Assembly (NCBI GenBank): GCA_963766525.1
Contig: CAVYAX010000014.1
Location: forward strand, 169,527-233,526
DNA length: 64,000 bases
Direction of reading: 5' to 3'
Source of the DNA: an uncultured Actinomycetes bacterium
Lineage (GTDB): Bacteria; Actinomycetota; Thermoleophilia; Solirubrobacterales; Solirubrobacteraceae
Shown here: positions 5,506 through 63,424 of the stretch, in pieces
Numbering within the stretch: position 1 is the stretch's first letter
Layout: the number at the start of each line of letters is the position of its first letter
Notes under the pieces: model-generated
Told to the model about the DNA's origin: nothing
The model's database searches: none
The model's input: the letters and a program-made list of their open reading frames with translations, nothing else
Made by a program: the position numbers and the translations under genes

Positions 5506-5522
5506 CGCCGGCGGACGCGGGC

Positions 5523-6043: not shown

Positions 6044-6055
6044 ACACACCCGACC

Positions 6056-10522: not shown

Positions 10523-10529
10523 GGACGTC

Positions 10530-10934
10530 GTGACCGCCGACATCATCGGAACCGGCGTGGCCTGGCCGCTTGGCGTCGACCGCCGGGGAACGCTCGCGCT
10601 GGCGCACGGCGAGGAGGACGTCGAGCAGGCGATCTCGATCATCCTGTCGACGGCGCCCGGCCAGCGCCCGATGCGACACGAGTTCGGCTGCGGCCTGCAC
10701 GACTACGTCTTCGACGTGCTCGACGCCGCCACGCTCGGCAGCATGGAGGCCGAGATCCGGCGGGCGCTCGAGCGCTGGGAGCCGCGGATCGAGGTGGAGG
10801 GCGTGGACTTCGATCTAGAGGCGAGCCCGAGCGGCCTGCTGGCGATCACCATCACCTACCGCCTGCGCACATCCAACGACGTGCGCAACCTCGTCTACCC
10901 CTTCTACGTCGTCGCGGCGGACGAGGACGGCTGA
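10530..10934 (+). CDS. Baseplate wedge protein gp25 / GPW (lysozyme-like fold).
   Basis: 134 aa, with ...EQAISIILSTAPGQRPMRHEFGCGLHDYVFD... typical of the GPW_gp25 family. It has a GTG start. Confidence 0.85.
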   Translation: MTADIIGTGVAWPLGVDRRGTLALAHGEEDVEQAISIILSTAPGQRPMRHEFGCGLHDYVFDVLDAATLGSMEAEIRRALERWEPRIEVEGVDFDLEASPSGLLAITITYRLRTSNDVRNLVYPFYVVAADEDG

Positions 10935-14936: not shown

Positions 14937-15374
14937 TCAGTCCGATCCGTCGGGCGCGCGCAGGCGACCCCACGTCTTCGGGCCGACGATGCCGTCGACG
15001 TCGAGCCCGAAGTCGCCCTGAAAGCCCTTGACGGCGGCCTCGGTCTTCGGGCCGAAGCGGCCGTCGATCTCGCCGACGTCGTAACCCTGCGCAAGCAGCC
15101 TGCGCTGCAGGCCGCGCACGGCGACGCGCTTGTCGCCCTGCTTCAGGGTCGGGTCGCTCTTGTCGGCGTCGTCGAGCTTCTCCCACGTCAGGGGCCCGAC
15201 GATGCCGTCCTGCTCGAGCTTCGCCCACGCCTGCAGCGACCGCACCGCGGTGTCGGTGTAGACCCCGAACTTGCCGTCCGGCTTGCCGGGCTTGAAGTCG
15301 AGCTCGATCAACGACTCCTGCAGGTCCTTGACGTCCGGGCCCTCTGATCCTCGCTCAAGCGTCGGCTCTGCCAT
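14937..15374 (-). CDS. Protein with two peptidoglycan-binding PG_binding_1 repeats and no catalytic domain.
   Basis: Two copies of ..G..V..LQ..L..LG.....DG.FG..T..AV..FQ.....DGIVGP.TW. The start is MAEPTL at 15374, with an alternative at 15422. Confidence 0.65.
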   Translation of the reverse strand: MAEPTLERGSEGPDVKDLQESLIELDFKPGKPDGKFGVYTDTAVRSLQAWAKLEQDGIVGPLTWEKLDDADKSDPTLKQGDKRVAVRGLQRRLLAQGYDVGEIDGRFGPKTEAAVKGFQGDFGLDVDGIVGPKTWGRLRAPDGSD

Positions 15375-15444
15375 CGGTGCTGCCCCCTTGGGATCGAAAG
15401 TTCGGCCGGAGGATACGGTCACCGGCGCTCCCCTGCGACCTGGC

Positions 15445-15891
15445 TCAGCGCCGCTCGCCCTCGGATTCCAGCGCGTCCACGACCGCCCACGTCTTCGGCC
15501 CCACGATCCCGTCCACGACGAGCTGGGCCTGCTTCTGCAGCGTCCTGACCGCGGCCTCGGTCTTCGGCCCGAAGCGGCCGTTGACCTCGGGGATCTCGAA
15601 GCCCGCGAGCTTCAGGCGGTTCTGCAGCCGGCGCACCGGCAGTCCCTTGGAGCCGTTCTTCAGGACGGGCTCGCTCTGGTCGGCCTCGTCGATGTTCAGC
15701 CACGTGATCGGGCCGCAGATGCCGTCGACCTCGAGGCCCTTGAGCGTCTGGAACGCCTTGACCGCGTCCTCGGTCTTCTTGCCGAACACGCCGTCGATCG
15801 GTCCGGGCGCCAACCCGAGCGCCTTCAGCGCCTCCTGCAGGTCCTTGACCGCTTGCCCCTTCGCGCCCTTCTTCAACGTCGGCTCAGCCAT
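15445..15891 (-). CDS. Paralog of 14937..15374 with two PG_binding_1 repeats.
   Basis: It has the same architecture and the same MAEPTLKKG start motif. The alternative longer start at 15945 is 7 nt from the upstream stop. Confidence 0.65.
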   Translation of the reverse strand: MAEPTLKKGAKGQAVKDLQEALKALGLAPGPIDGVFGKKTEDAVKAFQTLKGLEVDGICGPITWLNIDEADQSEPVLKNGSKGLPVRRLQNRLKLAGFEIPEVNGRFGPKTEAAVRTLQKQAQLVVDGIVGPKTWAVVDALESEGERR

Positions 15892-15951
15892 CGGATCCTC
15901 CTTGAGTCGGGGTTGCTCGGACTCTAGCCACGCGGCTCTAGCCACGCGGGC

Positions 15952-17628
15952 TCAACGCGGGCGCAGGACGCCGGACTTGACGACGGCCTTCCCCGCCCTG
16001 CCGCCGGTCGGCCGGTAGGAGACCCAGACGTTCACGCGCTCGGCCCGACGAAGCCGGCGGATCGCGGCGCGGCCGACCGCGTTCGGGCGCAGCGTGACGT
16101 GCAACGTCGCCGCGCCCTTGGGCTTGATCGTCCTGCGCGCGAGCGTGAAGCGACCCGGCCCCGGCTGGCGGACGCGCAGACCGGATGAGCCGAGCGTCCC
16201 GAGCACGAGGATGCTCCCCGCCCCCGGGACCGTGACGTCGAAGCGCGCGATGCCGTTCTGCGCGAGCCGGAACTTCGTCACCTTGAAGCGGTTGCTCGGC
16301 AGGCGCGGGGCGACGGGCGGCGGGGGCGGCGGCCCGAGTCCGAGCGGCAGCGTTGGCGCGGCCACGAGCAGCGAGGCGCTCGCCGCGGGGCCCGCGCCGG
16401 CCTCGACGGAGCTCACGACGCTCGTCGCGAGCGACTGCGGTCCCGCGGCAAGACCGCGGACGGCGGCGCTGAACGTGCAGGCGCCGCTCGGTGGCAGCGC
16501 CGCGCCGGCAAGCGCGATCGATCCGGAGCCTGCGGCGGCGGTGATCGTGCCGCCAGGGCACGAGCCGGTGAGCCCGCTGGGCGTGGCGACGGCGAGGCCT
16601 CCCGACAGCGCGGCGGTGAAGCCGACCCCACTGAGCGCCAGCGCCGGGTTGGCGTTGGCGAGCGTGAAGGTGAGGGTCGTCGAGCCGCCGGGCGCGATCG
16701 ACGCCGCGCCGAACGCCGTCGCCAGCGCCGGGGGCGCGCGCACGACGAGCGTGGCGGTCGCACCCGGTGCGGCGACCGCGCGCAGGTCGCCCCCGCCGGC
16801 GTCGTAGCTGAAGGACAGCGGACCGGTGGGATTCGGCGCGACGCTCGCCCCGGTGCCGACGACGTCGACGGAGACGCTGCACTGCGAGCCGGCTTCGATC
16901 GCCAGTCCGGCCAGCGCGATCGTCGCCGCGCCCGGGACCGCGACGATGCCGTCGGTGACGCACGTCGCGCCCGCGTTGGCGGGCGACGCCACCGCGAGGC
17001 CCGCCGGCAGCACGTCCTCGAAGGCGAGGTTGTAGAGGCGCGCGCCCGCGTTCGGGTTGCTCATCGTGTACGTCACGCGCGCCGTCTCGCCGACGACGAT
17101 CGTGTCGTCGTCGAAGGACTCAGCGAACCCGGGCGGTGCGAGAACCAGCAGCGACGCGACGTTGCTTGACGATCCGGGCCCGCTCTCGGCCGAGGTGGCA
17201 GGTCCCGCGACCACGTTCACGGTGCCCGGCGCGGGCGCGACGACGTCGAGGACGACCGTGCAGCTGTTGGTCACCTCGTCGTCCGCGGGCTGCAGCGTCG
17301 CGCCGCTGACGCTGATCGTCGTCCCGCCGTCAGCGGCGGTCACCGTGCCCGAGCAGGTCGTGAAGAGCTCGCTGGGCGTCGAGATCACGAGCCCTGCCGG
17401 AAGGGCGACGCTGAAGTCGACGTTCGTCATCGTGAGGCCGGCGTTCGGATTGGCGACCGTGAAGCCGAGGCCGACGTCGGCGCCCGCCGTCGCCGCCTCC
17501 TGCGAGAAGAAGGCCTGCAGCACGGGCGGCGCGACCTGCGCCTGCGCGGCCGCCGGCACGATCGCGCAGGCGGCCACCGCCGCGACCGCGACGCGGGCCG
17601 CGGCGGACGCCAAGCCAAGCGCTCTCAC
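15952..17628 (-). CDS. Secreted DUF11 'conserved repeat domain' surface protein. It carries a signal peptide and at least 4 DUF11-like repeats, then a poly-Pro linker and the shared C-terminal domain.
   Basis: GTG start at 17628 with signal peptide VRALGLASAAARVAVAAVAACAIVPAAAQA. The repeats have the form TxxNPNAGxxxxNVxFxxxLPAGL....CSG. The C-terminal part is GPPPPPPVAPRLP followed by the CTD. Confidence 0.65.
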   Translation of the reverse strand: MRALGLASAAARVAVAAVAACAIVPAAAQAQVAPPVLQAFFSQEAATAGADVGLGFTVANPNAGLTMTNVDFSVALPAGLVISTPSELFTTCSGTVTAADGGTTISVSGATLQPADDEVTNSCTVVLDVVAPAPGTVNVVAGPATSAESGPGSSSNVASLLVLAPPGFAESFDDDTIVVGETARVTYTMSNPNAGARLYNLAFEDVLPAGLAVASPANAGATCVTDGIVAVPGAATIALAGLAIEAGSQCSVSVDVVGTGASVAPNPTGPLSFSYDAGGGDLRAVAAPGATATLVVRAPPALATAFGAASIAPGGSTTLTFTLANANPALALSGVGFTAALSGGLAVATPSGLTGSCPGGTITAAAGSGSIALAGAALPPSGACTFSAAVRGLAAGPQSLATSVVSSVEAGAGPAASASLLVAAPTLPLGLGPPPPPPVAPRLPSNRFKVTKFRLAQNGIARFDVTVPGAGSILVLGTLGSSGLRVRQPGPGRFTLARRTIKPKGAATLHVTLRPNAVGRAAIRRLRRAERVNVWVSYRPTGGRAGKAVVKSGVLRPR

Positions 17629-17633
17629 GGCGA

Positions 17634-18485
17634 CTACTTCGGCAGCACGCTGTTCGTCGGCGCGCCCTCGACGGCGTTTCCGGTGACCTCGTTGTTGCCG
17701 AACGACGTGATCTTGCCGCCCCCGCTGACGAGCATGGCCGTGCCGTTGCCGTTGATCGTCGTGCTGCCGATGCGGATGTCCGAGAGCGCGCCGGACGAGT
17801 TGAGGGCGATGGTGTTGTCCGAGATGAAGCTGTGGAACACGTTGACGATCGCCGCCTGCGCACCACCGTTCGTAGCGACGGCGTTGCCGTTGTCGTCCAG
17901 CGTGCTGCGCCGGACGGTCACGGCCTCCCCGGCGGCTGCGGGGTTCAGGGCGACGGCCGTCGTGGCGGTGTGGATCCTCGAGTCCTGGACGATGAGGCGC
18001 GAGTTGGCCGTGGTGGACGCGAAGTTCACGCCGGCCACGCTGAAGCCGTAGATCTCGCAGTCCTCGATCCGCAGCATCTTGCCGGAGTTCATCTTGACGC
18101 CCACCGATGCCGTGTCGAGCCCGTTGATGTCCAGGCCCGTCAGCGTCACGCGGTCGTTCACGCCGGCGCTGACGTTGATCGCGTTCGCGGCGTTGGTGAG
18201 GACGCCCGCCGTGTTGCCCCGCGCGCGGATGTGAATCGACTTCGTGATCGTGACCGCGCCGAAGCCGCCAGGGTCGAGGACGTTGATCTCGCCCTTGGCG
18301 GCGGTCTTGGAGATCGCGCCGGCGAACGTCTTGCACGGCGCCGTGCGACTACACGGGTTGACGTCGTCGCCGACGCCGGAGACCCACGTGCGCGTGGCCT
18401 GTCCGAAGGCGACGGATGGGAGCACCGCAAGGGCGACGATGGCGGTCAGCGCGGTAGCGGCCGCGCGCGCAGGTGTGTTGAGCAT
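17634..18485 (-). CDS. Secreted right-handed parallel beta-helix (pectate-lyase-fold) protein.
   Basis: It has a signal peptide and repeated xxNxxxGxxxxG / IxxNTI beta-helix rungs. Its stop lies 6 nt before the DUF11 gene start. Confidence 0.65.
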   Translation of the reverse strand: MLNTPARAAATALTAIVALAVLPSVAFGQATRTWVSGVGDDVNPCSRTAPCKTFAGAISKTAAKGEINVLDPGGFGAVTITKSIHIRARGNTAGVLTNAANAINVSAGVNDRVTLTGLDINGLDTASVGVKMNSGKMLRIEDCEIYGFSVAGVNFASTTANSRLIVQDSRIHTATTAVALNPAAAGEAVTVRRSTLDDNGNAVATNGGAQAAIVNVFHSFISDNTIALNSSGALSDIRIGSTTINGNGTAMLVSGGGKITSFGNNEVTGNAVEGAPTNSVLPK

Positions 18486-18630
18486 GGTGCGAACCTACGC
18501 CCGCCGCCACCGGAGAGCAACGCAACCTTCGTCTAGGTCGCTGTCGCAAGCGCCTGGACGCCTCTCCGAGCCGGGGCGACCGGGCGTCAGCAAGGGGTCC
18601 CGGGGCACGCGGCGATAGATTGCGGCCTTC
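18486..18630. promoter_or_regulatory. Divergent intergenic region that probably holds the promoter(s) for nuoJKLMN and for the minus-strand surface-protein genes.
   Basis: A 145-bp gap separates divergently transcribed genes. No motif was confidently identified. Confidence 0.3.
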
Positions 18631-37279: not shown

Positions 37280-38175
37280 CGCGCGCCCTCCTGGCAGCCC
37301 TGGCCGCCGCCGCGCTGGCGATCGCCGGCTGCGGCGCGTCGGAGGGCGAGGGTGATGAGGCTGCGCGCTCTCCCCGCCTCGTCGACTTCACGAAGAAGCC
37401 GCCGTTCGTCAACGCGCTCGACATCGACCCGCAGACCAAGGACTTCCTGCTGACGACCAACCGCGGCTTCTACCGGATCGCCCCGGACGGCGGCAAGGTC
37501 ACGCCGATCGAAGGCACGATCTCGGCGCAGGGCAAGCGCTCGACGGTCGGCACGTTCCTCGAGCTGCTCGTCGCCGGGCCGAAGCAGTGGATCGGCTCCG
37601 GGCATCCCGACCAGCAGGGCACGCTGCCGGCGTTTCTCGGGTTCATCCTCTCGCAGGACGACGGCAAGACGTGGACCGTCGTCTCGCGCCTCGGCAACGC
37701 CGACCTGCATAAGATCATCCGCGCGCACGACCGCATGTACGCCTTCGACGCGGTGCTCAGCGCGATCCTCATCTCCGACGACGGCGGGCGCACGTTCACC
37801 GAGAACTTCACGCCGCGCGGGCTCATCATCGACTTCGAGGTGGACCCGGCCGACGCGAAGCGCATCGTCGCGTCCAACGACAACGAGCTGTTTCGCTCGA
37901 CGGACACCGGCGAGTCGTGGCGGCCGATCGATCGCCGCGAGGGGATCCGGCTGTCGTGGCCGGCGCCCGACGCGCTGTACCGCGCCCTGAAGGACGGCAC
38001 GGTCGAGCGCTCGTCGAACGGCGGCGACACATGGGAGAAGGCTGGCTCCGTCGACGACGAGCCGTACAAGTTCAAGGCAATCGGGAAGGACGAGCTGTAC
38101 CTCGCGCTGATCGACGGCACGATCATGCACACGACCGACGGAGCCAAGACATGGGAAGCGGTGTTCAGGCCATGA
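37276..38175 (+). CDS. Lipoprotein with BNR/Asp-box repeats (sialidase-like or Ycf48-like beta-propeller).
   Basis: Lipobox ALAIAGC. Repeated S/T-x-D-x-G-x-T-W motifs (DDGKTW, DDGGRTF, TDTGESW, SNGGDTW, TDGAKTW). Confidence 0.7.
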   Translation: MTRALLAALAAAALAIAGCGASEGEGDEAARSPRLVDFTKKPPFVNALDIDPQTKDFLLTTNRGFYRIAPDGGKVTPIEGTISAQGKRSTVGTFLELLVAGPKQWIGSGHPDQQGTLPAFLGFILSQDDGKTWTVVSRLGNADLHKIIRAHDRMYAFDAVLSAILISDDGGRTFTENFTPRGLIIDFEVDPADAKRIVASNDNELFRSTDTGESWRPIDRREGIRLSWPAPDALYRALKDGTVERSSNGGDTWEKAGSVDDEPYKFKAIGKDELYLALIDGTIMHTTDGAKTWEAVFRP

Positions 38176-39203
38176 GCCCGAGGGTGGCGGCGCGCGCAGC
38201 GCTCGCGGCAGCGTCGGCGGTCGCCGCGGCGGCGGCGCTCCCGGCCGCGGCCGCGGCCCACTCGCTCGTGCGCCCCTCGGCCGGCGTCGTCTCGTACCTC
38301 TCCGCCGACGCCACCTCGCTGAACACGCTCACGGTGCGCGCGAGCGGCTCGCGGATCGAGTTCCGCGACCCGACCGTCGACGGCGGCATGGACCCCGGCT
38401 CCTGCACGCCCGGCGACATCAGCGCCGACGCCAACGCGTGGATCATCCAGACGTTCTGCCCCGCGGCCGGCGTGCGCTCCGTGCGCCTCGACCTCGGCGA
38501 GCGCGAGGACACCGCCACGGTCTCGGTGAACGTCGCGACGACGCTGCTCGGCGGCCCCGGGGCCGACAAGCTCACCGGCGGCCCGGCCGCAGACCAGCTC
38601 AGCGGCGACGACGGCGACGACACGCTCGCCGGCTCCGGCGGCAACGACGTCATGGTCGGCGGCCTCGGCGTCGACGAGCTCGCCGGCGACGCGGGCGACG
38701 ACGACCTGCGCGCGCGCGACGGGATCCAGGACCTCGTCCGCTGCGGCACGGGCGCCGACAAGGTCGACGCCGACACGCTCGACGAGGTCGATCCCGACTG
38801 CGAGAACGTCACGCGCACCCTGACCGCGGCACCGCCCGGCGCCACTACGACACGCGATCGCGTGGCGCCCCGCGTCGAGGTCGGCGCGCCGGCCCGCAAG
38901 CGGATCGCCCAGACGCGCACGATCCGCGTCTTCGCGAGCTCGACCGAGAGCGGCTTCGTCGCGGCGTCGGGGTCGCTCACCGTCGACGGCCTCGCGCTGC
39001 CGCTGAACGTCGTGCGCCGCCGGATCGCTGTCGCAGGCGGGGGCGCCGAGCTCGCGGTCAAGCTGACCCAGTCGCAGTGGCGACAGGCCCGGCGGGCGCT
39101 GCGGCGCGGGCGCAAGGCGACGGTGCGGCTGGCGGTCGTCGCGACGGATCGCGCCGGCAACTCGCGCGAGGCCTCGCCGATCACGATCCGCCTGCTGCGC
39201 TGA
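38172..39203 (+). CDS. Secreted protein with hemolysin-type (RTX) Ca-binding Gly/Asp nonapeptide repeats and the shared C-terminal domain.
   Basis: A signal peptide, then GGPGADKLTGGPAADQLSGDDGDDTLAGSGGNDVMVGGLGVDELAGDAGDDDL, then the CTD with its ATDRAGN motif. Its ATG overlaps the upstream stop. Confidence 0.7.
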   Translation: MSPRVAARAALAAASAVAAAAALPAAAAAHSLVRPSAGVVSYLSADATSLNTLTVRASGSRIEFRDPTVDGGMDPGSCTPGDISADANAWIIQTFCPAAGVRSVRLDLGEREDTATVSVNVATTLLGGPGADKLTGGPAADQLSGDDGDDTLAGSGGNDVMVGGLGVDELAGDAGDDDLRARDGIQDLVRCGTGADKVDADTLDEVDPDCENVTRTLTAAPPGATTTRDRVAPRVEVGAPARKRIAQTRTIRVFASSTESGFVAASGSLTVDGLALPLNVVRRRIAVAGGGAELAVKLTQSQWRQARRALRRGRKATVRLAVVATDRAGNSREASPITIRLLR

Positions 39204-39345: not shown

Positions 39346-41760
39346 ATGCGAGCAGTCTCGGTCGGGTCCCTCGTCGCGGCGCTGGCGCTGTGCGCCGTGC
39401 CGGGCGCACAGGCACATCGCTCGGCGGCTGGCGCCTCCGATCGACCCTGGAGCACCGACGGCGGGAGTCCCGCCGCGGCGGCGTCCGCGGGCCGCTCTGC
39501 CTTCGGCCTTCCGGCGACGACCCGCCAGCACGGCGGCCTCGACAACCATCTCCCGCCGGCGAAGGAGAACATCGAGCTGGTCTCCAAGCTCGAGCTGACG
39601 GCGCCGTTCGGCAACGTCCTGCCCGGCCAGATCGCGGACGTCGCGGTCTTCAAGAAGTCCGCCTATCTCATGTCGTGGTCGCCGCTGGAGAACCCCGGCG
39701 ACACGGCGTGCCAGCGCGGCGGCTTCTTCAGCGTCGACATCTCGAACCCGGCGGCCCCCGCGCAGAAGGCGTTCGTCCCCGCGTTGCCGCAGACATATCA
39801 CGGCGAGGGCGCGCACGCGATCACGCTCAGCACGCCGTCGTTCGCGGGCGACGTGCTGGCGGTGAACAACGAGCCCTGCGGCCCCGACGGCGTCGGCGGC
39901 TTCGACCTCTACGACGTCAGCAACCCGGGCAACCCGATCGCGCTCGTCAAGGGCGCGGGCGACCGGTCACCCGACGGCTCACTCGTCCAGGACCCCGCCG
40001 AGGTCCCGAACTCCAACCACAGCATCTTCATCTGGCAGGACGGCCCGCGCGCCTACGCGGTGACGGTGGACAACACCGAGCTGCACGACGTCGACATCTT
40101 CGACATCACGAACCCGCGCAACCCCGAGTTCATCGCCGACCTCGACCTCGTGGAGATGTTCCCGCAGATCGTTCAGAACTCGGCGAACGGCAACACGATC
40201 TTCCACCACGACATGGTCGTCAAGCGCATCAACGGCCGCATGACGATGCTCAACAGCTACTGGGACGCCGGCTACGTGCAGCTCGACGTGACCAATCCGG
40301 CGGCCCCGACGTACATCGGCGACACGCGCTTCCCGAACCTCGACCCGCTGATCTCGGTGACACCGGCGGGGCCGCCGGAGGGCAACGGCCACCAGTCCGA
40401 GTACAGCTACGACAACCAGTTCATCCTGGCCGCCGACGAGGACTTCGGCACGTCGCGGGCGATCTTCGAGATCACCGACGGGCCCAACGCCGGCACGTCG
40501 CCCGGCGGCGAGTTCAGCTTCAGCCTGCCGATCAGCGACCTGCCCGGCGGCCGCCTGCACGGCCCGACGGTGTACGGCGGCTACGGCTGCCCGGCACTCA
40601 ACCAGATCCCCGACGCGGCCACGGCGTTGCCCACAGTCCTACCGGGTGAGCAGCGGATCCTCGTCGTGCAGCGCGGGCCCGTCGGAGACGTCGCGCCGCA
40701 CACCTACGACGCCTGCCGCTTCGACGAGAAGATGGCCAACGCGATCGCCAAGGGCTACGACGGCATCCTCATCGGCCAGCGGCACCTTGGTGACGCGGCG
40801 TCCGACGGCGCGTTCTGCGGCAGCGGCGAGCCGCGCGCGATCCGGGGCATGTGCATCACCCACGAGGCCATGCACGACATCTTCAACGACCCGCCGGGCT
40901 TCGGCCTGCCCTACCCGACCGGGCACGGTCCCGCGATCGGAGCGCTCGGGGCGAGGGTGTCTGCGACGACGCAGTTCGACGGCTGGGGCTACGCGCATCT
41001 CTACGACGCCGCCTCGAACCTGCTCATCGACGACTACGCGATCCCCGAGGGCCTCGACGCGCGCTACGGATCGGGCTTCGGCGACCTGTCGATCCACGAG
41101 TTCGCGACCGACCCCGAGACGAACCTCGCATACAGCGCGTACTACGCGGGCGGCGTGCGGGTTCTGCGCTTCAGCCGCGCCGCCGGCCTCGAGGAGGTCG
41201 GCAAGTTCATCGACACGGAGGGCAGCAACTTCTGGGGCGTCGAGCAGTTCACGGACGCCGCCGGCAACCGGTTGATCGCCGGCTCGGACCGCGACTACGG
41301 CCTGTACATCCTCAAGTACACGGGCCCGGGTGCCGTGCTCGCCAAGCCGCCGGCACCACCGCCGCCGCCGCCCGTGGCGCCGCCGCCACCCCCACCGCCG
41401 CCGGTCAAGCCCAAGCCGTCGTCGTTCTTCACCTTCGGCACGCTGAAGAACCTGACGTTCCGCAACCGGGTCGCCCGCGCGACGATCCGGGTGCCGGGCA
41501 ATGGGAGGGTCACCGCCACGGTGAGGGCCAACATCGGCGGTCGCCAGCGCGTGCTCGACGGCGCGACGGCCACGGCGACGCGCGCGGGCAACGTGCGGCT
41601 GACGTTCCGCCTGACCGCGGCGACGGAGCGGTCGCTGCGGCGCACGCTGGCACGGCGGCCGACGCGCCGGACGGGTGGCGTGCTGCGAGCGTCCTACACG
41701 CCGACGGGCGGTATGCGCCGCACGCGCAACAAGACGGTCTCGATCGCTATCGGCCGCTGA
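39346..41760 (+). CDS. Secreted LVIVD-repeat beta-propeller protein with an inserted PA (protease-associated)-like domain, a poly-Pro linker and the shared C-terminal domain.
   Basis: A signal peptide and LVIVD-type motifs (FDLYDVSNPGNPIAL, IFDITNPRNPEFIADL, LDVTNPAAPTYIG). The C-terminal part is PPAPPPPPPVAPPPPPPPP followed by the CTD. Confidence 0.7.
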   Translation: MRAVSVGSLVAALALCAVPGAQAHRSAAGASDRPWSTDGGSPAAAASAGRSAFGLPATTRQHGGLDNHLPPAKENIELVSKLELTAPFGNVLPGQIADVAVFKKSAYLMSWSPLENPGDTACQRGGFFSVDISNPAAPAQKAFVPALPQTYHGEGAHAITLSTPSFAGDVLAVNNEPCGPDGVGGFDLYDVSNPGNPIALVKGAGDRSPDGSLVQDPAEVPNSNHSIFIWQDGPRAYAVTVDNTELHDVDIFDITNPRNPEFIADLDLVEMFPQIVQNSANGNTIFHHDMVVKRINGRMTMLNSYWDAGYVQLDVTNPAAPTYIGDTRFPNLDPLISVTPAGPPEGNGHQSEYSYDNQFILAADEDFGTSRAIFEITDGPNAGTSPGGEFSFSLPISDLPGGRLHGPTVYGGYGCPALNQIPDAATALPTVLPGEQRILVVQRGPVGDVAPHTYDACRFDEKMANAIAKGYDGILIGQRHLGDAASDGAFCGSGEPRAIRGMCITHEAMHDIFNDPPGFGLPYPTGHGPAIGALGARVSATTQFDGWGYAHLYDAASNLLIDDYAIPEGLDARYGSGFGDLSIHEFATDPETNLAYSAYYAGGVRVLRFSRAAGLEEVGKFIDTEGSNFWGVEQFTDAAGNRLIAGSDRDYGLYILKYTGPGAVLAKPPAPPPPPPVAPPPPPPPPVKPKPSSFFTFGTLKNLTFRNRVARATIRVPGNGRVTATVRANIGGRQRVLDGATATATRAGNVRLTFRLTAATERSLRRTLARRPTRRTGGVLRASYTPTGGMRRTRNKTVSIAIGR

Positions 41761-41944: not shown

Positions 41945-44455
41945 ATGTCAAGGTTTCGCGCAGGTGCCCTGACGGCTCTGACAACGATGTGCGCCATGGT
42001 GCTCGCCGTTCCGGGGGCCGAAGCGCTGACGAAAACGGCGCGGGACGCAGCCCGCATGCCGACGCAATCGGATGCAACGCGCGCCCCGATCAAGAACACC
42101 GGCCCGTTTGGACTCAGCAAGCACCACGACGGGACGACCGACCACCTACCCGGCGCCCAGAAGAACATGGAGCTCGTCGGAGAGCTCAACCTCCTCAGCC
42201 CGACCACCGGCAACCCGGTCCTGCCGGGTCAGGTCGCCGACGTGGCCGTCCACAAGGGCTACGCGTACCTCAACTCGTGGGACAGCCCCACGTGTGACGA
42301 CGGCGGCACGTTCGTCGTCGACATCCGCGATCCCGCGAACCCCACGCAGGTGGCGTTCATCCCGGCCCAGGAGCCCTTCTATCACGGCGAGGGCGCGCAC
42401 GTGATCTCCGTCGACACGCCCTCGTTCACGGGCGACATCCTCGCGGTCAACGACGAGACGTACGGCTCGAACGTCGCCCTGACGAACCCGACGTGCGCTC
42501 CGGCCAGCAAGCTCGGCGGCGGCTTCGACCTCTACGACGTCACCGACCCGGCGAACCCCGAGCCGCTCGTGCAGGTCGCGGGCGATCAGTCCCCCGAGGG
42601 CTCCGAGGTCCAGAACCCGGCCGCGGTGCCGAAGTCCTACCACAGCGTCTTCATCTGGCAGGACGGGCCGCGGGCGTTCCTCGTCGCGTCTGACAACACC
42701 GAGCTCGCGGACGTCGACATCTTCGACATCACCGATCCGACGAACCCCGAGTTCATCAACGACCTCGACCTCTTCGACCTGCCCGAGGTCGACGACATCG
42801 TCGACGACGGCGCGCGCGGCAACGCGATCTTCCACCACGACGTCGTGGTCAAGCGGGTCGGCGGTCAGATGCGCATGCTCGTGTCCTACTGGGACGCCGG
42901 CTACGTCGAGCTTGACGTCGACGACCCCGCGAACGCCACGTTCATCACCGACACGGACTTCGACGATCCCGATCCGCTGGTCGCGGGGGTCGACCCGCCC
43001 GAGGGCAACGCCCACCAGGCGGAGTTCACGCACGACGGCGAGTTCTTCCTGGCCGGGGACGAGGACTTCGCCCCGTACCGGCTGATCAGCGAGATCACCG
43101 AGGCGCCGTATGCCGGGCTGAGCTTTGCGTCGGCGCTGTCGGCAGCCGAGCCGATCAACCCGGGAGAGCTGATCCAGGGCGACACGATCTTCGTCGGCAA
43201 CGCGTGCCCCGGCACCGTGCCGCCGGCGACACCGGGCGGGCCGACGATCGCCGTCGCCGAGCGCGGCGGCACGTGCGCGCCGCCCGGGACGGGCTTCTTC
43301 CAGGAGAAGGCCGAGCAGATCGAGGCGGCCGGGTACGAGGTCGGGATCGTCATGAACAACAGCTTCGGGGCGGGCGGCGGCCGCTGCGAGGCGCTCCTCA
43401 ACATGCTGATCGACCCCGCCACCGTCGACATCCCGATGATCTTCGTCGGGCGCGCCAACGGGCTGCGGATCCTCAACACGTTCGACCAGGCCACGTACGC
43501 GTGCACCGGTGCGGCGACCGAGACGGTTGCGGACACCGACGTGCCGGTGCTCGGCACGCTTGGGCTCAACGTGCGGATCGGCTCGCTGTTCGACGGCTGG
43601 GGCTACTCGCACCTCTACGACAGCGAGACGGGCGACGAGCTTGACGCGTTCGCCGTCGCAGAGGGCATCGACCCGCGCTATGCGGCCGGGTTCGGGGACC
43701 TCACGATCCACGAGGTCGCGACGGATCCGTCCACGAACCTCGCGTACATGGCGTACTACAACGCCGGCATGCGGGTGGTTCGCTACAGCCGCGCGGACGG
43801 CATCGAGGAGATGGGCAAGTTCATCGATGACGAGGGCAGCAACTTCTGGGGCGTCGAGCAGTTCACCGACGCCGCCGGGAACCGGTTGATCGCAGGCTCC
43901 GATCGCGACTTCGGGCTGCAGATCTTCAAGTACACCGGCCCGGGTGCGGTGCTGGCACCGCCCCCGCCCCCGCCGCCGCCCCCACCACCACCACCGCCTC
44001 CACCGCCACCGCCCCCGACGGTGACGGTTCCGGGCCCGCCAGCACCGGTCGCACCGCCGCCGATCGTCGTACCGCCGCCGCCGCCACCACCGGCAGCGCC
44101 GACGACGAGGGCGCCGTCGATGTTCAGGTTCGGGTCGCTTACGAACCTGACGTTCAGCAGCGCCGGCCGCGCGAGCCTCACGCTCGAGTTCCCCGGGGCG
44201 GGCAGCGTCGAGGCACTGGTCAGGGCGGCCATCGGGCGCACCACGGTTCAGCTCGCACGCACGAGCCGGACGCTGACGGCCGCGGGCGACCTGCGGATGA
44301 CGTTCCAGATGTCGGCAGCCAACGCGCGCCTGCTGCGTCGGACGCTGTCGCGGCGCCCGACGGGTCGCACGCCCGGCGTCCTGCGCGTGGCGTACTCGCC
44401 CAGGGGTGGAACGCGGCGCACGCGCAACAAGTCGCTGTCGATCGGCATGCGCTAA
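41945..44455 (+). CDS. Paralog of 39346..41760 with the same LVIVD-repeat, PA-like domain, poly-Pro linker and shared CTD architecture.
   Basis: A GGAGG Shine-Dalgarno sits 8 nt upstream, followed by a signal peptide. It has the same motif set, and its C-terminus PPPPPPPPPPPPPPPPPP...CTD aligns with the 39346..41760 protein. Confidence 0.7.
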   Translation: MSRFRAGALTALTTMCAMVLAVPGAEALTKTARDAARMPTQSDATRAPIKNTGPFGLSKHHDGTTDHLPGAQKNMELVGELNLLSPTTGNPVLPGQVADVAVHKGYAYLNSWDSPTCDDGGTFVVDIRDPANPTQVAFIPAQEPFYHGEGAHVISVDTPSFTGDILAVNDETYGSNVALTNPTCAPASKLGGGFDLYDVTDPANPEPLVQVAGDQSPEGSEVQNPAAVPKSYHSVFIWQDGPRAFLVASDNTELADVDIFDITDPTNPEFINDLDLFDLPEVDDIVDDGARGNAIFHHDVVVKRVGGQMRMLVSYWDAGYVELDVDDPANATFITDTDFDDPDPLVAGVDPPEGNAHQAEFTHDGEFFLAGDEDFAPYRLISEITEAPYAGLSFASALSAAEPINPGELIQGDTIFVGNACPGTVPPATPGGPTIAVAERGGTCAPPGTGFFQEKAEQIEAAGYEVGIVMNNSFGAGGGRCEALLNMLIDPATVDIPMIFVGRANGLRILNTFDQATYACTGAATETVADTDVPVLGTLGLNVRIGSLFDGWGYSHLYDSETGDELDAFAVAEGIDPRYAAGFGDLTIHEVATDPSTNLAYMAYYNAGMRVVRYSRADGIEEMGKFIDDEGSNFWGVEQFTDAAGNRLIAGSDRDFGLQIFKYTGPGAVLAPPPPPPPPPPPPPPPPPPPPTVTVPGPPAPVAPPPIVVPPPPPPPAAPTTRAPSMFRFGSLTNLTFSSAGRASLTLEFPGAGSVEALVRAAIGRTTVQLARTSRTLTAAGDLRMTFQMSAANARLLRRTLSRRPTGRTPGVLRVAYSPRGGTRRTRNKSLSIGMR

Positions 44456-44689: not shown

Positions 44690-45771
44690 TTAGCGACGCA
44701 GGTCGATCGGCTTCGTGACCGTGCGCTTGTTGCCGGCGGCGTCCGTTGCCGTCACGCGCAGGGCGGCGGTCAGCTTGCGGCCGGCGCGCAGCTTGCGCGC
44801 GGCCGGCTTCCAGCGGGCGAAGACGTAGGTCCGGCCGGCACCGGCCAGCGACCACGAGCCGGTGGCGAGCACGACGCGCTTGCTGCCCAGCCCGGCGCGC
44901 CGGGCGGCCTTCGCATCGGCGGCGAGCGAGACGTCGAGATCGCAGGCCTCGGAGCAGGACGCCTTGACGACGAGCGACTTGCCGGCGTCGGCGAGGCGCT
45001 GGCGGCGCTGCACGGTGATCGTGATGGTCGGCGCGTTGACGTCGCGAGACCCCGGCGTCGCGGTCCCTCCGGGGCCGGTCCCGTCCCCGTCCCCGTGCCG
45101 GTGCCGGTGCCGGTGCCGCCCGTCCCCGGCGTCGTGCCGGTACCGGGCGGGCCGACGATCGACTCGTCCGGGTCGCACGCGCTGCCGATCCCGTCCTTGT
45201 CGAGGTCGTCCTGGATGAACGGGGGCGTGGCGCTCGGGAAGGGGTTCCAGACGGTCGGGCAGTTGTCGACGGTGTCATCGACCTTGTCGTTGTCGTCGTC
45301 GCGGTCGCAGGCATCGCCGCCGCGAGGGCTGCCGGGCTCGCCGTCGCCGTCGAGATCCTCCTGACCCGGGTTCGGCACCGTGACGCAGTTGTCAACATCG
45401 TCTGTGAGACCGTCGCCGTCGGTATCCACGGACGGGCAGGCGTCGCCGGCGACCACCGGGCGGGTTGGTGTCCTCCTGGCCGGGGTTCGCGACCAGCCGG
45501 CAGTTGTCGCCCGCGTCGGGGACGCCGTCGTTGTCGTCGTCCGCATCGCAGGCGTCGCCGCCGTCAGCGGCGCACCGTCGGTGTTGATCTGCGAGCCGTT
45601 CGCGGTCGTCGGGCAGTTGTCGGCCTCGTTGAGGATGAGGTCGCCGTCGAGGTCGCCCGGCTCGGGGTGGGCGGCCACGGCCGAGACGGTCGCGGCAGGC
45701 GCGCTCGCTACGAGCGCGGCGACGCCGCATGCGATCGCCAGGACGGCGATGAGTGCTCGGAGCAAGCCCAT
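44690..45771 (-). pseudogene. Secreted thrombospondin type-3 (TSP3) repeat protein with a Gly-Thr/Pro linker and the shared CTD. Its reading frame is disrupted at about three places.
   Basis: A signal peptide, then DxDGDxxxNxxDNCPxxxNPxQxDxDGDGxGDACD repeats spread over three frames (shifts near 45560, 45470 and 45080), then the CTD (..TATDAAGNKRTVTKPIDLRR). The last shift lies inside an imperfect hexanucleotide array. Confidence 0.5.
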
Positions 45772-49494: not shown

Positions 49495-51265
49495 TCAGCG
49501 GACGATCTTGAACGCCGTCCGCTTCGGCGGCGACGTGTTCGCCACCGGGCCGATTCCGCGTGCGTTGAGCCGGTAGCGGCCGGGCTTGAGCGTGCGGCCG
49601 CCGATCCGGCCGCGCAGCTCGATCTTGTTGGTGCCCTTGCGGCCCGTGACCGTGAACGAGCCCTTGACCGCAAGCCAGCGCTCGCAGCGCGGGCGGCGTG
49701 CGGTTGCGGGTCGACGGCTTGACGCACTTGGAGCTCACCTTGCGACCCGAGGCGGACCGGTCGATGGTGAACCGCACCTTGCCGGGCCTGTCGAGCGCGA
49801 ACGTCACGATCGTGCCGATGGCGACTCGGGCCGCGCGGAACGGGCCGCCGGACGGCGCGGCGCGGAACGTCGTGCGCGAGAGGCGCAGCGCGGTGATGCG
49901 CGGCGGGCTGATGAACGGGGTCGGGGTCGGCGTCGGGGCGGCCATCGGCGTCGGCGTCGGCACCGGCGTGGGCACAGGCGTCGGGACCGGCGTCGGCGTC
50001 ACCGTCGGCGTCGCGACGGGCGTGATCGCTGTCAGCGAGAACGATGCGACGCCGCGCGCTTGGTTGTCGCCGCCGGCGCTCGTGAAGCCGCCGCCCGCGA
50101 AGAGGCTGCGCGGGCTGGTCGCGGGGGCGAGGCGATCGAAGATCGCCAGCGCGTGTCCCTCGCCGACCCAGGGCCCGTTGCCGGCACCGTTCGAGCCCAG
50201 CGGGCGCCACGCGCTGCCGTCGTAGTAGGCGACGTTGTCGGCCGTCGGGTCGCCGGCGGCATCCTGGAAGCTGCCGGTCGCGAAGAGGTTCGAGCCGAAG
50301 CTCGTCAGCGCGTAGATGAAGGTCGAGGCCGGGAACCAGCCGTCGTCATTCGCGGCGTTCGAGCCCACCGCGCTCCACGCCGAGCCGTTCCAGCGCGCGA
50401 CGTTGTCGGCTTGCGCGATGCCGGACACGTTCTTGACGTCCGTGCCGACGTAGACGTCGGTCCCGACAGCGGTGAGGCTGCGGACGAAGCCGTCGATCGC
50501 GCACTGGCAGGCGCCCGCTCCGGAGCCCATCGCGTGCCAGCCGCCGGCGTCGAGGTAGGCGACGTTGTCGGCCTCCGGAATGCCGGCGATCGCGAAGCGC
50601 CCGCCGGCGTACAGCCTCCCGTTGCTGTCCGCGGCCAAGGCCAGGATCGGCCCGAAGCCCGTGGAGTCCGCGAGCGTCGAGGTCGCGTGGCCGTCGTTCA
50701 GGTCGCAGGCGACGAGGTAGTCAGCGGTGGCGATTCCCGCGCCGTTTTGGTACTCGCCGCCGACGTAGAGCGTCGATCCGATGACCTGAAGCGCCTTGAC
50801 GTTGCCTGTGAACGACGCCGGGCCGCCGGCGACGGTGTTGTCGCAGAACGGCGCCCAGGTCTGGCCGTCCCAGACGGCGAGGAAGTCGGCGTCCTGGTTG
50901 CCGCCGGCGTTCGTGAAGCTTCCGCCGGCGTAGGTCTTGCCGTTTGCGTAGGCGATCGCGAAGACGCCGCCGTTGAGCTGGTCGCTGGCCGAGCCGACCG
51001 CGTTCCACGCGCTGCCGTTCCAGCTCGCGATGCGGTCCGCGGCCGCGTTGCCGCCCGCGTCGGTGAACTCGCCGCCGACGAGCAGCAGGCCGGGCGCGTC
51101 GCCGCTGAGCACGTTCACGTTGCCGTTGAGCGAATCGGACCCGGGCGTGCCGGCGTCGCCGAGGTGATCCCAGCCGCCCGGCCCGGCGGTCACGGCCTGC
51201 CCGACGAAGGCACCACCGAGCGCAAGCGCGACGAGCGCGATCGCACCCAGCCATCTCAGCCCCAC
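49495..51265 (-). CDS. Secreted beta-propeller repeat protein (delta-60 / SBBP-like GGxFTxAGG...W(N/D)GSxWSxxG repeats) with a Pro/Thr linker and the shared CTD. It has an apparent frameshift near 49690.
   Basis: A signal peptide and at least 8 repeats, then TPVATPTVTPTPVPTPVPTPVPTPTP. The CTD's last ~60 codons (..RWLAVKGSFTVTGRKGTNKIELRGRIGGRTLKPGRYRLNARGIGPVANTSPPKRTAFKIVR) lie in another frame. Confidence 0.55.
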
Positions 51266-62595: not shown

Positions 62596-63424
62596 CTACG
62601 GCGCGCGCAGGATGACCGTGCGCGCCGCCGTGTACGTCGCGCCGGTCAGCGGGTCGACGGTCAGGCGGAAGGTGATCGCGAGCCGGCCGTTGCGACGCAG
62701 CGCCCGACGCGCGACCGCGTTGAGCGGGACGGCGAAGGAGACGCGGCCCGGGCCGACCGACGCGCGCAGATGGCGGCCGACCTGGACCGGCAACGTGCTG
62801 CGGCCGCCGCTGAGCGCGCCGCGCCGCGCGAAGGCGCGCGCGAGCAGCCGCGAGCCCGCGCGGCTGACGCTGACCGAGCCGCGCAGCGTGAGGCTGCGCT
62901 GGGGGTTCGTGACGCGCAGGAGGGACGCGGCCGCGCCGGTGGCCGGCGGCGGAGGTGGCGGCGGCGGGGACACCGGAGGCGGAGGCGAGACGGGGCGGAG
63001 GCGGCGGCGGAGGCACGGGGCCACCCGGCACCGTGATCGCGCCGTTCATCCCCTCGCCGTGGAGGGCGCAGTAGAACGTGTAGGTGCCCGGAGCGGTGAA
63101 CGTGCACCGCCCGATCCATGCCGAGTTGCTCGGCTGGTTGGGCAGCGGCGGCACCGGCCCGCTGGACGGGCCCGCCGTCTGCTCGCAGCTCGTCGGCGCG
63201 GTCTTGAAGACGACGTTGTGCGGGTGGCTGCCGTCCTGCTGAAAGTAGACCAGGCCGCCGGAGTCGACCGTCAAGGCCGGGGTGCCGCCGTTGAACGTCT
63301 TGAACGCGTCGTCGGTGGCCACGATGCCGATCGTGGTCTGGCTCTGCGCCGGCCCGCCGATCAAGAGCACCCCGCCTACAACGGCGGCGCCGACCAGCGC
63401 GAGATAGCCCCGACGCATCCTCAC
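62596..63424 (-). CDS. Secreted cupredoxin (a type-1 blue copper protein of the plastocyanin/azurin kind) with a poly-Pro linker and the shared CTD. It has an apparent frameshift inside the poly-Pro run near 63010.
   Basis: A signal peptide and the T1 Cu ligands H..(GSHPHNV)..C-x2-H-x4-M (YCALHGEGMNG). The CTD (..RRALRRNGRLAITFRLTVDPLTGATYTAARTVILRAP) lies in another frame after the PPPPPPPP run. Confidence 0.6.

What the first reader, a model, noticed from the sequence alone, without database searches (positions are those of the whole stretch)
15952..17628. A shared ~100-aa Arg-rich C-terminal domain behind poly-Pro linkers marks at least seven different secreted proteins: candidate surface-anchoring or sorting signal
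Seven proteins in the window end with a homologous extreme C-terminal domain. They are the DUF11 protein (15952..17628), the RTX protein (38172..39203), both LVIVD propellers (39346..41760 and 41945..44455), the TSP3 protein (44690..45771), the delta-60-like propeller (49495..51265) and the cupredoxin (62596..63424). The domain is about 95-110 aa, beta-rich and very Arg-rich. Its conserved tail is roughly A..LRR.L.RR......V.L....TD.AGN.......I.L.R, for example LRRTLARRPTRRTGGVLRASYTPTGGMRRTRNKTVSIAIGR. It is almost always preceded by a PPPPPPP or Pro/Thr linker. The N-terminal passenger domains are completely unrelated (copper protein, beta-propellers, Ca-binding repeats). That pattern is what one sees for T9SS CTDs, PEP-CTERM, LPXTG or S-layer homology anchors. 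I do not recognise this CTD as any of those. The TD.AGN motif hints at an Ig-like fold. Seven members in 64 kb implies a large, lineage-specific surface-proteome module.
Basis: seen in the sequence. Interest (0 to 1): 0.8.

Follow-up and report, generated by a model that had tools for sequence, protein, structure and literature searches.

The report
Polycationic C-terminal domain on secreted proteins
Six secreted proteins of a soil actinobacterium (order Solirubrobacterales) end in the same unnamed, very positively charged immunoglobulin-like domain, which most likely holds these acidic proteins on the negatively charged cell envelope; that role is inferred, not shown.

Summary
Six of the seven proteins (DUF7933, RTX, two LVIVD/PA, TSP3, cupredoxin) end in one homologous domain of about 115 aa. 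Profiles stripped of every BLAST-detectable relative still find each copy (E 1e-8 to 2e-14), and shuffled copies score 12 bits or less against 56-90 bits.

The seventh tail (delta-60-like protein) belongs to a different family. Three of the seven genes need a 1-nt frame correction to join passenger and tail. Relatives are intact, and norB in the window is also frame-broken.

AlphaFold2 (pLDDT 90.8) gives an Ig/macroglobulin-like beta-sandwich with one helix. No Pfam, NCBIfam or PDB sequence match reaches threshold.

- **Size:** up to 2,933 50%-identity clusters, an upper bound.
- **Position:** 160 of 172 copies lie within 15 aa of the C-terminus.
- **Passengers:** members carry 54 different Pfam families among them.
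- **Taxa:** Thermoleophilia, including the isolates Baekduia alba and Conexibacter arvalis.
- **Charge:** +21 ± 4.5 (pI about 12) on acidic passengers (pI about 4.6). Lys replaces Arg in some members, even in a 72% GC contig.
- **Motif:** a conserved basic stripe, A-B-B-A-L-B-B-x-x-B, sits on the helix.

Best reading, inferred: non-covalent electrostatic retention on an anionic envelope polymer. It is a new, unannotated family of a known kind.

The parts
15955..16311 (-). Basic Ig-like C-terminal domain (CTD), 119 aa, net charge +24. It belongs to the DUF7933-repeat secreted protein (gene 15952-17628). A GLGPPPPPPV linker lies at 16312-16344.
   Evidence: Coordinates are. The family HMM gives E 1.5e-13 and the leave-out profile E 4.6e-11. 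The passenger is DUF7933 x3.
38850..39200 (+). CTD, 117 aa, net charge +17, of the RTX (HemolysinCabind) secreted protein (gene 38172-39203). A short AAPPGATTT linker lies at 38817-38852.
   Evidence: Supported (E 2.3e-22; E 1.1e-8). The AF2 model of this copy has pLDDT 90.8 and a helix at residues 74-85, QSQWRQARRALR.
41407..41757 (+). CTD, 117 aa, net charge +25, of the first LVIVD/PA protein (gene 39346-41760). A poly-Pro linker lies at 41344-41406.
   Evidence: Supported (E 2.3e-20; E 1.9e-11).
44105..44452 (+). CTD, 116 aa, net charge +18, of the second LVIVD/PA protein (gene 41945-44455). A 50-aa poly-Pro linker lies at 43955-44104.
   Evidence: Supported (E 1.7e-23; E 2.2e-14).
44693..45046 (-). 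CTD, 118 aa, net charge +17, belonging to the TSP_3 protein. The signal peptide and TSP3 repeats are read in another frame (45079-45771). A 1-nt frame break lies in the Gly-Thr linker at about 45050-45080.
   Evidence: Supported (E 2.8e-19; E 2.3e-13). The orthologues in L004, L005, L008, L009, L021, L023, L026 and L028 have the whole gene, CTD included, in one frame.
62599..62943 (-). CTD, 115 aa, net charge +19, belonging to the cupredoxin (Copper-bind) protein (start 63418/63424). The poly-Pro linker at 62944-63025 contains the frame break, an apparent extra C in CCGCCCCGTC near 62990.
   Evidence: Supported (E 1.5e-25; E 1.2e-8). Intact cupredoxin+CTD relatives are P0034 and P0036. Linker and CTD are in one frame in L002.
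49498..49906 (-). Not a member of the main family. This is a different C-terminal beta-sandwich domain of about 136 aa, also polycationic (+29), on the delta-60-like protein (gene 49495-51265). A Pro/Thr linker lies at 49916-50011. A frame break lies inside the domain at about 49661-49700.

Best explanation
**What it is (shown).** It is an unannotated, single-copy domain of about 110-115 aa with an Ig/macroglobulin-like beta-sandwich fold and one inserted alpha-helix. It sits at the extreme C-terminus of Sec/Tat-exported proteins of Thermoleophilia (Solirubrobacterales and Thermoleophilaceae), usually behind a Pro-rich or Pro/Thr/Gly-rich spacer.

**How it most likely works (inferred).** It acts as a non-covalent retention module.

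1. Its polycationic surface (about +21) includes a conserved stripe of Arg/Lys on one face of the helix, A-B-B-A-L-B-B-x-x-B.
2. That surface binds an anionic component of the cell envelope. Candidates are a teichoic- or teichuronic-acid-like wall glycopolymer, a lipoglycan, or acidic phospholipid head groups.
3. The stiff Pro-rich spacer lets the acidic passenger project through or away from the wall.

This would keep the following classes of protein at the cell surface of a monoderm that gives them no lipid, LPXTG or transmembrane anchor: electron carriers (cupredoxins), phosphate-scavenging proteins (PstS-like binding proteins, PhoD and purple acid phosphatases), Ca-binding proteins and propeller proteins.
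For: **Homology and fold**
- The six copies are homologous.
- AF2 gives pLDDT 90.8, a beta-sandwich plus a helix at residues 74-85.

**Position**
- 147 of 172 copies lie within 5 aa of the C-terminus and 160 of 172 within 15 aa.

**Charge**
- 143 CTDs have net charge +21.0 ± 4.5 (minimum +10) and median pI 12.0.
- 79 passengers average -19.5, with median pI 4.56, and 97% are acidic.
- Some members are 22% Lys and 1-4% Arg. One of these lies in a 72% GC contig (P0050, L041). The charge is therefore selected and is not a by-product of GC content.
- Basic residues occupy profile positions 76, 77, 80, 81 and 84 in 74-88% of members, and L79 is present in 142 of 153. That spacing (i, i+1, i+4, i+5, i+8) places them on one helix face.
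- In the window only these genes have strongly basic tails.

**Passengers**
- 54 Pfam families occur across 90 members, led by RTX 13, Copper-bind 12, TSP_3 7, PBP_like_2 7, fn3 6 and phosphatases 4.
- PstS-like members have AXA-type signal peptides and no lipobox.
- It is established knowledge that monoderms normally tether such proteins.

**Swapping at the same position**
- LVIVD/PA orthologues carry, at this position, one of the following: this CTD, Cys-pair variants of it, an unrelated third basic domain (+17 to +41), RTX repeats, or nothing.
- The delta-60-like protein carries yet another unrelated polycationic beta-sandwich behind a PT linker.
- Convergence on charge points to charge as the working property.
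Against: - There is no experimental localisation for any member, and no ligand is known.
- The wall chemistry of Thermoleophilia is essentially uncharacterised. The literature searches found nothing on it.
- The fold is generic, so the structure does not indicate a ligand.
- The P0050 (PstS-like) neighbourhood shows no pstCAB genes, so its transporter role is unproven.
- A +21 domain would bind any polyanion, so the target could lie outside the cell.
- The 834-kb sample used to count basic tails is biased towards one gene cluster.
Confidence: 0.45

Rival explanations
1. It is a targeting module for external polyanions rather than for the cell's own surface. The basic domain would dock the secreted proteins onto extracellular DNA or anionic exopolysaccharide of a biofilm matrix, or onto negatively charged soil particles (clay, humic matter). 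In that reading it works like a carbohydrate-binding or matrix-binding module.
For: - It shares the polycationic surface and helix stripe of the main explanation.
- The organisms are soil bacteria (record titles).
- Many passengers are adhesin-like: RTX, TSP3, cadherin, PKD and fn3.
Against: - Cupredoxins and PstS-like binding proteins (12 and 7 of 90 members) need to stay next to the membrane to be useful.
- Few passengers are polysaccharide-active enzymes.
- The fold matches are generic Ig-like hits, so they say little.
Confidence: 0.2
2. It is a C-terminal sorting or secretion signal, analogous to the T9SS CTD. A dedicated machine would recognise it and then cleave it or ligate the cargo to a surface polymer.
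For: - It is an Ig-like beta-sandwich of about 100 aa at the extreme C-terminus of many unrelated cargos, which is the T9SS CTD logic.
Against: - All window members already have N-terminal signal peptides, which is sufficient for export in a monoderm.
- No TIGR04183/Por_Secre_tail match appears even at E<=1.
- The lineage is Actinomycetota, not Bacteroidota.
- Internal copies are tolerated in RTX-CTD-TSP3-CTD fusions found in several genomes.
- No conserved candidate protease or ligase was seen next to the genes in the window or in 38 related loci. Only local neighbourhoods were inspected.
- Orthologues can lack the domain altogether (L025).
Confidence: 0.1
3. It is a structural Ig-like stalk or oligomerisation module with no specific ligand. 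Its charge would serve solubility, charge balancing of the very acidic passengers, or an export-kinetics role.
For: - The mean charges nearly cancel, +21 against -19.5.
- The fold is that of common spacer domains. Weak sub-threshold similarity to Big_13/VCBS adhesin repeats was seen.
Against: - CTD charge does not track passenger charge (Pearson r = -0.12, p = 0.32, n = 71). Whole-protein net charge varies widely, with SD 21.7.
- The generic adhesin repeats that match weakly are acidic, at -7 to -12.
- The strict C-terminal, single-copy placement and the conserved basic helix stripe are not expected of a spacer.
Confidence: 0.15
4. It is not a real domain. The similarity would be Arg-rich compositional bias of a 72% GC genome, or out-of-frame translation.
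For: - Pairwise BLAST between most subtypes is marginal.
- Three tails lie in a different frame from their passengers.
Against: - Leave-out profiles give E 1e-8 to 2e-14.
- Shuffles score 12 bits or less against 56-90 bits.
- AF2 gives pLDDT 90.8.
- Lys-rich members exist.
- The frames are coding-like, with high GC3.
- Intact in-frame fusions occur in relatives.
Confidence: 0.02

Closest known systems
T9SS C-terminal domain (Por_Secre_tail, TIGR04183) of Bacteroidota
   Different: - There is no sequence match.
- The phylum is different, and it is a monoderm.
- T9SS CTDs are not polycationic and must be C-terminal because they are cleaved by PorU. Here internal copies occur and the hallmark is a +21 charge.
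Non-covalent Gram-positive wall-binding modules (from general knowledge, not tested here): SLH domains, GW modules of InlB/Ami (bind lipoteichoic acid), WxL domains, CWB2, and the basic C-terminal wall-binding region of Lactobacillus S-layer protein SlpA
   Same: These are C-terminal modules that hold diverse exported passengers on the wall without covalent linkage. Several (GW, SlpA C-terminus) are strongly basic and bind anionic teichoic acids.
   Different: There is no sequence relationship: no SLH, GW, WxL or CWB2 hit in Pfam at E<=1. The fold is different (single Ig-like sandwich plus helix), the copy is single rather than tandem, and the ligand is unknown.
Bacterial Ig-like adhesin repeats (Big_13 PF19077; VCBS TIGR01965)
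   Same: The beta-sandwich fold is the same, and the T-D-x-A-G-N strand motif occurs in the RTX and TSP3 subtypes. Weak hits were found: Big_13 at 15.4 bits for the RTX CTD, and VCBS at 16.1 bits (cut-off 15.5) for the TSP3 CTD. Giant repeat adhesins match the profile weakly.
   Different: Those repeats are tandem, internal and acidic (-7 to -12 per repeat, at 8-18 bits each). This family is single, terminal and polycationic, and it has the helix motif. Only one of the six copies touches any cut-off.
Macroglobulin (MG) domains of complement C3/C5/alpha-2-macroglobulin, and domains 2-3 of Vibrio GbpA
   Different: Sequence identity is 9-16%, and no sequence-level match to any PDB chain was found. 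The similarity is at the level of a very common fold.

Membership tests
New basic Ig-like CTD family of Thermoleophilia (defined here) | Full-length match to the family profile, independent of close relatives | tested here: met
   Six window copies score E 1.5e-13 to 1.5e-25 and E 1e-8 to 2e-14 in the leave-out test. The delta-60-like tail fails.
New basic Ig-like CTD family of Thermoleophilia (defined here) | Extreme C-terminal position, net charge of at least +10, and the helix motif A-B-B-A-L-B-B | tested here: met
   All six end 0-3 residues before the stop codon. Their charges are +17 to +25. The motif is present in the alignments.
T9SS CTD (TIGR04183 Por_Secre_tail) | Match to the curated HMM | tested here: not met
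   An NCBIfam scan of all seven tails at E<=1 lists no T9SS family.
T9SS CTD (TIGR04183 Por_Secre_tail) | Host encodes T9SS machinery (PorU/PorV and others; Bacteroidota/FCB) | not testable with these tools
   No whole genome was available. The lineage is Solirubrobacterales, Actinomycetota, where T9SS is not known (general knowledge).
SLH domain (PF00395) | Match to the Pfam model | tested here: not met
   No hit at E<=1 for the seven tails or for the 22 aligned members.
Sortase LPXTG sorting signal | [quoted passage not shown] | tested here: not met
   Direct reading of the seven C-termini shows no LPXTG and no hydrophobic segment. The proteins end in a folded beta-strand...V.L.R.
PEP-CTERM / GlyGly-CTERM type signals | Short motif followed by a transmembrane helix and a basic cluster, with an NCBIfam match | tested here: not met
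   No such NCBIfam hit and no C-terminal hydrophobic helix.
Big_13 / VCBS bacterial Ig-like domains | Score above the curated cut-off | tested here: inconclusive
   Big_13 scores 15.4 bits against a cut-off of 27 (RTX CTD only). VCBS TIGR01965 scores 16.1 bits against a cut-off of 15.5 (TSP3 CTD only). The other four copies have no hit. A remote superfamily link is plausible, but family membership is not shown.
Macroglobulin (MG) domain | Sequence or profile match in addition to fold similarity | tested here: not met

The most novel reading that the evidence does not exclude
Thermoleophilia display much of their acidic exoproteome through a sortase-independent, purely electrostatic system. At least three sequence-unrelated families of polycationic Ig-like C-terminal domains would be interchangeable 'charge anchors' behind Pro-rich spacers, binding a still unidentified anionic wall polymer. 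The three families are the main one here, the delta-60-type, and a 'type 3' seen on LVIVD orthologues. That would be a new general surface-display principle for a major, poorly studied soil lineage.
Probability: 0.3. Interest if true: 0.7.

Novelty: new variant of a known kind. Interest (0 to 1): 0.55.

Why it matters
Solirubrobacterales and other Thermoleophilia are among the most abundant soil Actinomycetota, yet their cell envelope and surface proteome are almost unknown.

- **Annotation:** a defined, easily recognised C-terminal module marks exported proteins, including cupredoxins, phosphate-scavenging proteins and Ca-binding or propeller proteins. A profile would annotate hundreds to thousands of 'hypothetical' tails.
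- **A testable question:** it poses concretely how these bacteria keep proteins at the surface. Cultured hosts are available (Conexibacter arvalis, Baekduia alba).
- **Application:** if the charge-anchor idea holds, the domain could serve as a portable surface-display tag for high-GC Gram-positives.
- **Data quality:** the window's assembly carries indel-type frame breaks that split real genes. That matters for any gene-level reading of this sequence.

Tried and rejected
- **Pfam and NCBIfam:** scans of the tails and of 22 aligned members found nothing at threshold. The 'type 3' tails also have no Pfam hit.
- **PDB sequence search:** a search with the profile gave only noise.
- **The search for related loci with the CTD alignment:** it failed because no conserved 7-10 column stretch exists. 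I used the LVIVD1 protein instead, which biases the loci to that gene cluster.
- **afdb50 fold library:** it was not available.
- **Literature:** three full-text searches covering Solirubrobacter/Conexibacter C-terminal domains, the Thermoleophilia envelope, and Solirubrobacterales sortase or surface proteins found nothing relevant.
- **Charge-balancing idea:** rejected, because CTD charge does not correlate with passenger charge.
- **Transporter context for PstS-like P0050:** no pstCAB genes lie nearby, so this was uninformative.
- **Conserved frameshift idea:** I considered that the cupredoxin/CTD frameshift might be conserved or programmed, because P0012 and P0013 looked like separate CTD ORFs. 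I rejected this.
  - L001 is a noisy assembly with the break at a different place.
  - L002 is merely truncated in the linker.
  - Intact fusions exist.
- **Delta-60-like tail as a divergent member:** rejected.
- **Family size:** the figure of 2,933 hits was checked and must be read as an upper bound, because acidic multi-repeat adhesins also reach significance by summed weak matches.
Full report
**1. The window**

The window is 69-76% GC. A search with the LVIVD protein retrieved 38 loci. Nearly all come from Solirubrobacteraceae, Solirubrobacterales or Thermoleophilaceae metagenome-assembled genomes, with up to 75% identity. The source is therefore a member of Solirubrobacterales, class Thermoleophilia, Actinomycetota.

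**2. Is the observation in the sequence?**

Four of the seven named proteins are single ORFs that end in the described tail:

- DUF7933 protein, 15952-17628(-)
- RTX protein, 38172-39203(+)
- LVIVD/PA protein, 39346-41760(+)
- LVIVD/PA protein, 41945-44455(+)

For the TSP3 protein, the delta-60-like protein and the cupredoxin, the tail lies in another reading frame.

- **Cupredoxin.** The break sits in the poly-Pro linker, at a CCGCCCCGTC run near 62990. Removing one C yields ...PPPPPPPVSPPPPVSPPPPPPPPATG... joined to the tail.
- **TSP3.** The break lies in a GGCACC/GGGACG Gly-Thr linker.
- **Delta-60-like protein.** The break lies inside the C-terminal domain itself.

Relatives show these are single genes.

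- Cupredoxin+CTD proteins P0034 and P0036 are intact.
- A short-read contig has linker and tail in one frame (L002).
- The TSP3 orthologue has the whole gene, CTD included, in one frame in L004, L005, L008, L009, L021, L023, L026 and L028.
- The delta-60-type tail is in frame in P0185-P0193, at up to 81% identity.
- A noisy long-read contig (L001) breaks the cupredoxin gene at a different place. The break is therefore not a conserved or programmed shift.

The window's nitric-oxide reductase gene is also split between two frames. COX1 profile positions 2-277 lie in 32201-33946(-) and positions 305-435 in 31519-32178(-). I read all four breaks as indel errors of the assembly. Pseudogenes are less likely, and only the reads can decide.

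**3. Are the tails homologous?**

Pairwise BLAST is convincing only for LVIVD1/LVIVD2 (9e-25) and RTX/TSP3 (3e-8). Profiles settle the matter.

- An exhaustive HMM search supplied 172 external proteins.
- A family HMM built only from those scores the six window tails at E 1.5e-13 to 1.5e-25 and finds nothing else in the six-frame window.
- I removed from the profile every sequence that BLASTP can link to a given tail (15-69 sequences). The remainder still aligns that tail end to end:

| Tail | Leave-out E-value |
|---|---|
| DUF7933 | 4.6e-11 |
| RTX | 1.1e-8 |
| LVIVD1 | 1.9e-11 |
| LVIVD2 | 2.2e-14 |
| TSP3 | 2.3e-13 |
| Cupredoxin | 1.2e-8 |

- Five hundred shuffles of each tail never exceed 12.1 bits, and reversed sequences never exceed 6.8 bits. 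The real sequences score 56-90 bits.

The similarity is therefore not compositional.

The delta-60-like tail scores 8.3 bits, inside its own shuffle range. Its profile (A5) aligns to the main family with about 1% hhalign probability. It is a separate family of about 136 aa with a conserved Cys pair and a GRIGGR.L.PG.Y.L.ARETD motif. The count is six, not seven.

**4. What the domain is**

- **Fold.** AlphaFold2 on the RTX copy with a 22-sequence alignment gives pLDDT 90.8 and pTM 0.78. The model is a beta-sandwich with a single helix at residues 74-85, QSQWRQARRALR.
- **Sequence databases.** No Pfam or NCBIfam model reaches its cut-off on the family. The only touches are Big_13 at 15.4 bits (cut-off 27) on one copy and VCBS at 16.1 bits (cut-off 15.5) on another. 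No PDB chain matches by sequence.
- **Existing annotation.** Reference proteins carrying the domain are annotated 'hypothetical protein' or by their passenger.

**5. Family-wide features**

- **Size.** The exhaustive search gives 2,933 50%-identity cluster representatives at E<=1e-3 and 73 at E<=1e-10. The first figure is an upper bound. Giant acidic repeat adhesins, such as a VCBS protein of Oceanisphaera, reach significance through summed weak per-repeat matches of 8-18 bits, with repeat charge -7 to -12.
- **Position.** Among the 172 retrieved copies, 147 end within 5 residues of the C-terminus and 160 within 15. Most internal copies belong to RTX-CTD-TSP3-CTD fusion proteins that also end in a CTD (P0043, P0045; L010, L024, L030, L031, L035).
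- **Passengers.** Ninety longer members carry 54 different Pfam families:
  - RTX, 13
  - Copper-bind, 12
  - TSP_3, 7
  - PBP_like_2 (PstS-like), 7
  - fn3, 6
  - PhoD_N and purple acid phosphatase N-terminal domains, 4 each
  - also cadherin-like, PKD, PA/LVIVD and an M36 peptidase
- **Signal peptides.** By a simple heuristic, 56 of 80 apparently full-length members have signal-peptide-like N-termini. The rest look like fragments.
- **Taxa.** Named sources are Thermoleophilaceae, Baekduia alba and Conexibacter arvalis.

**6. The distinguishing property is charge**

- The 143 C-terminal copies carry +21.0 ± 4.5 (range +10 to +34) with median pI 12.0.
- The 79 passengers average -19.5 with median pI 4.56, and 97% are acidic.
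- Some members reach the same charge with Lys (22% K, 1-4% R). P0050 does this in a 72% GC contig. The basicity is therefore selected and is not a by-product of Arg-rich GC codons.
- Basic residues are conserved at profile positions 54, 70, 76, 77, 80, 81, 84, 105 and 110, in 68-88% of members. L79 is present in 142 of 153 and G98 in 148 of 153.
- Positions 76, 77, 80, 81 and 84 fall in the modelled helix, with spacing that puts them on one face.
- CTD charge does not correlate with passenger charge (r = -0.12, p = 0.32). Simple charge compensation is therefore unlikely.
- In the window, only the CTD genes have strongly basic tails.

**7. Swapping at the same position**

LVIVD/PA orthologues in other Thermoleophilia end in one of the following:

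- this CTD
- Cys-pair variants of it (L017, L019, L027)
- a third, sequence-unrelated basic domain (L006, L013, L016, L032; +17 to +41; no Pfam hit)
- RTX repeats (L014, L018, L022, L030, L031)
- nothing (L025)

The delta-60-type tail is an independent polycationic beta-sandwich (+15 to +29 in all homologues) behind a Pro/Thr linker.

I surveyed 399 coding-like ORFs of at least 200 aa across about 834 kb of these loci. Sixty-seven have a last-110-aa charge of +15 or more. Of these, 44 match the main family and 2 the delta-60 type, and several more look like divergent members. The sample is biased to one gene cluster, and L041 was not in the HMM database for that survey.

**8. Mechanism**

Shown:

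- the domain is a folded, C-terminal, polycationic Ig-like module
- it sits on acidic exported passengers
- it is usually behind a flexible or stiff Pro-rich spacer (mean 22% Pro in the 30 upstream residues)

Inferred: the domain binds an anionic envelope component and so retains the passenger at the cell surface. Three arguments support this.

- Unrelated domains converge on the same charge at the same position.
- A conserved one-faced basic helix stripe is typical of linear-polyanion binding.
- Cupredoxins and PstS-like binding proteins here lack a lipobox or other anchor, and such proteins must stay near the membrane in a monoderm (general knowledge).

Rivals:

- **External polyanions.** The domain could bind matrix DNA or EPS, or soil particles.
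- **Cleaved sorting signal.** This is weakened by N-terminal signal peptides, tolerated internal copies, orthologues without the domain, and the absence of a neighbouring partner gene.
- **Passive stalk or charge balancer.** This is weakened and by the acidic nature of generic repeats.
- **Artefact.** This is refuted.

**9. Comparison and novelty**

In logic the domain resembles the T9SS CTD, and in likely function the basic non-covalent wall-binding modules of Firmicutes (GW modules, the SlpA C-terminus, SLH, WxL). It is a member of none of them (see the membership table).

It is best described as a new, unannotated domain family and a new variant of the known kind 'C-terminal surface-retention or targeting module'. 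No function has been tested.

I score interest at 0.55. The family is large, clean and lineage-defining, and it opens a testable question in a neglected group. However, an Ig-like C-terminal module on secreted proteins is not in itself surprising, and the mechanism is inferred.

Noticed in passing
window 31519-33946 (-): The nitric-oxide reductase gene (NorB cytochrome-c-like domain plus COX1) is split between two reading frames near 32,200-32,280. This is a fourth frame-broken gene in the window, alongside the TSP3, delta-60-like and cupredoxin genes. It suggests indel errors in the assembly.
   Followed up: partly
window 35545-45771; loci L004-L040: A conserved gene cluster runs BNR/sortilin-like protein, RTX-CTD, one or two LVIVD/PA-CTD genes, then TSP3-CTD on the opposite strand. 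It recurs across Solirubrobacterales and Thermoleophilaceae MAGs. In several genomes RTX-CTD and TSP3-CTD are fused into one protein (RTX-CTD-TSP3-CTD; P0043, P0045, L010, L024, L030, L031, L035), which hints that the two Ca-binding proteins work together.
   Followed up: partly
L006 9863-12325, L013 1734-4490, L016 924-3533, L032 9362-12508: A third, sequence-unrelated and very basic (+17 to +41) C-terminal domain with a Cys pair replaces the CTD on LVIVD/PA orthologues. It has no Pfam match. Further basic FlgD-Ig-like tails occur at L006 559-4140 and L020 16836-20546.
   Followed up: partly
window 51366-53036 (+): A PMT_2 (protein O-mannosyltransferase/ArnT-like) membrane glycosyltransferase lies next to the delta-60-like gene, whose linker is a long Pro/Thr repeat. 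The Pro/Thr linkers could be O-glycosylated. That is an idea only.
   Followed up: no
window 1-13000 (+), e.g. 10523-12928: A Baseplate_J-like protein (PF04865, E 1.7e-20) sits among a run of same-strand ORFs. This looks like a phage-tail-like or contractile injection system or a prophage segment.
   Followed up: no
window 14937-15951 (-): Two small ORFs just downstream of the DUF7933 gene end in ...GRFGPKTEAAV..F Q...DGIVGPKTW..., which looks like a peptidoglycan-binding (PG_binding_1-type) repeat. I recognised it by eye in the output and did not scan it.
   Followed up: no
window 17637-18494 (-): A right-handed beta-helix protein (PF13229) is encoded immediately upstream of the DUF7933-CTD gene, in another frame of the long 15952-18336 ORF.
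   Followed up: yes
L041 (JGI 3300036851 contig, 72% GC) 7935-10010: The PstS-like protein P0050 carries a Lys-rich version of the CTD (22% K, 4% R) in a high-GC contig. The neighbouring PD40-like protein (5126-7843) also ends in a CTD.
   Followed up: partly
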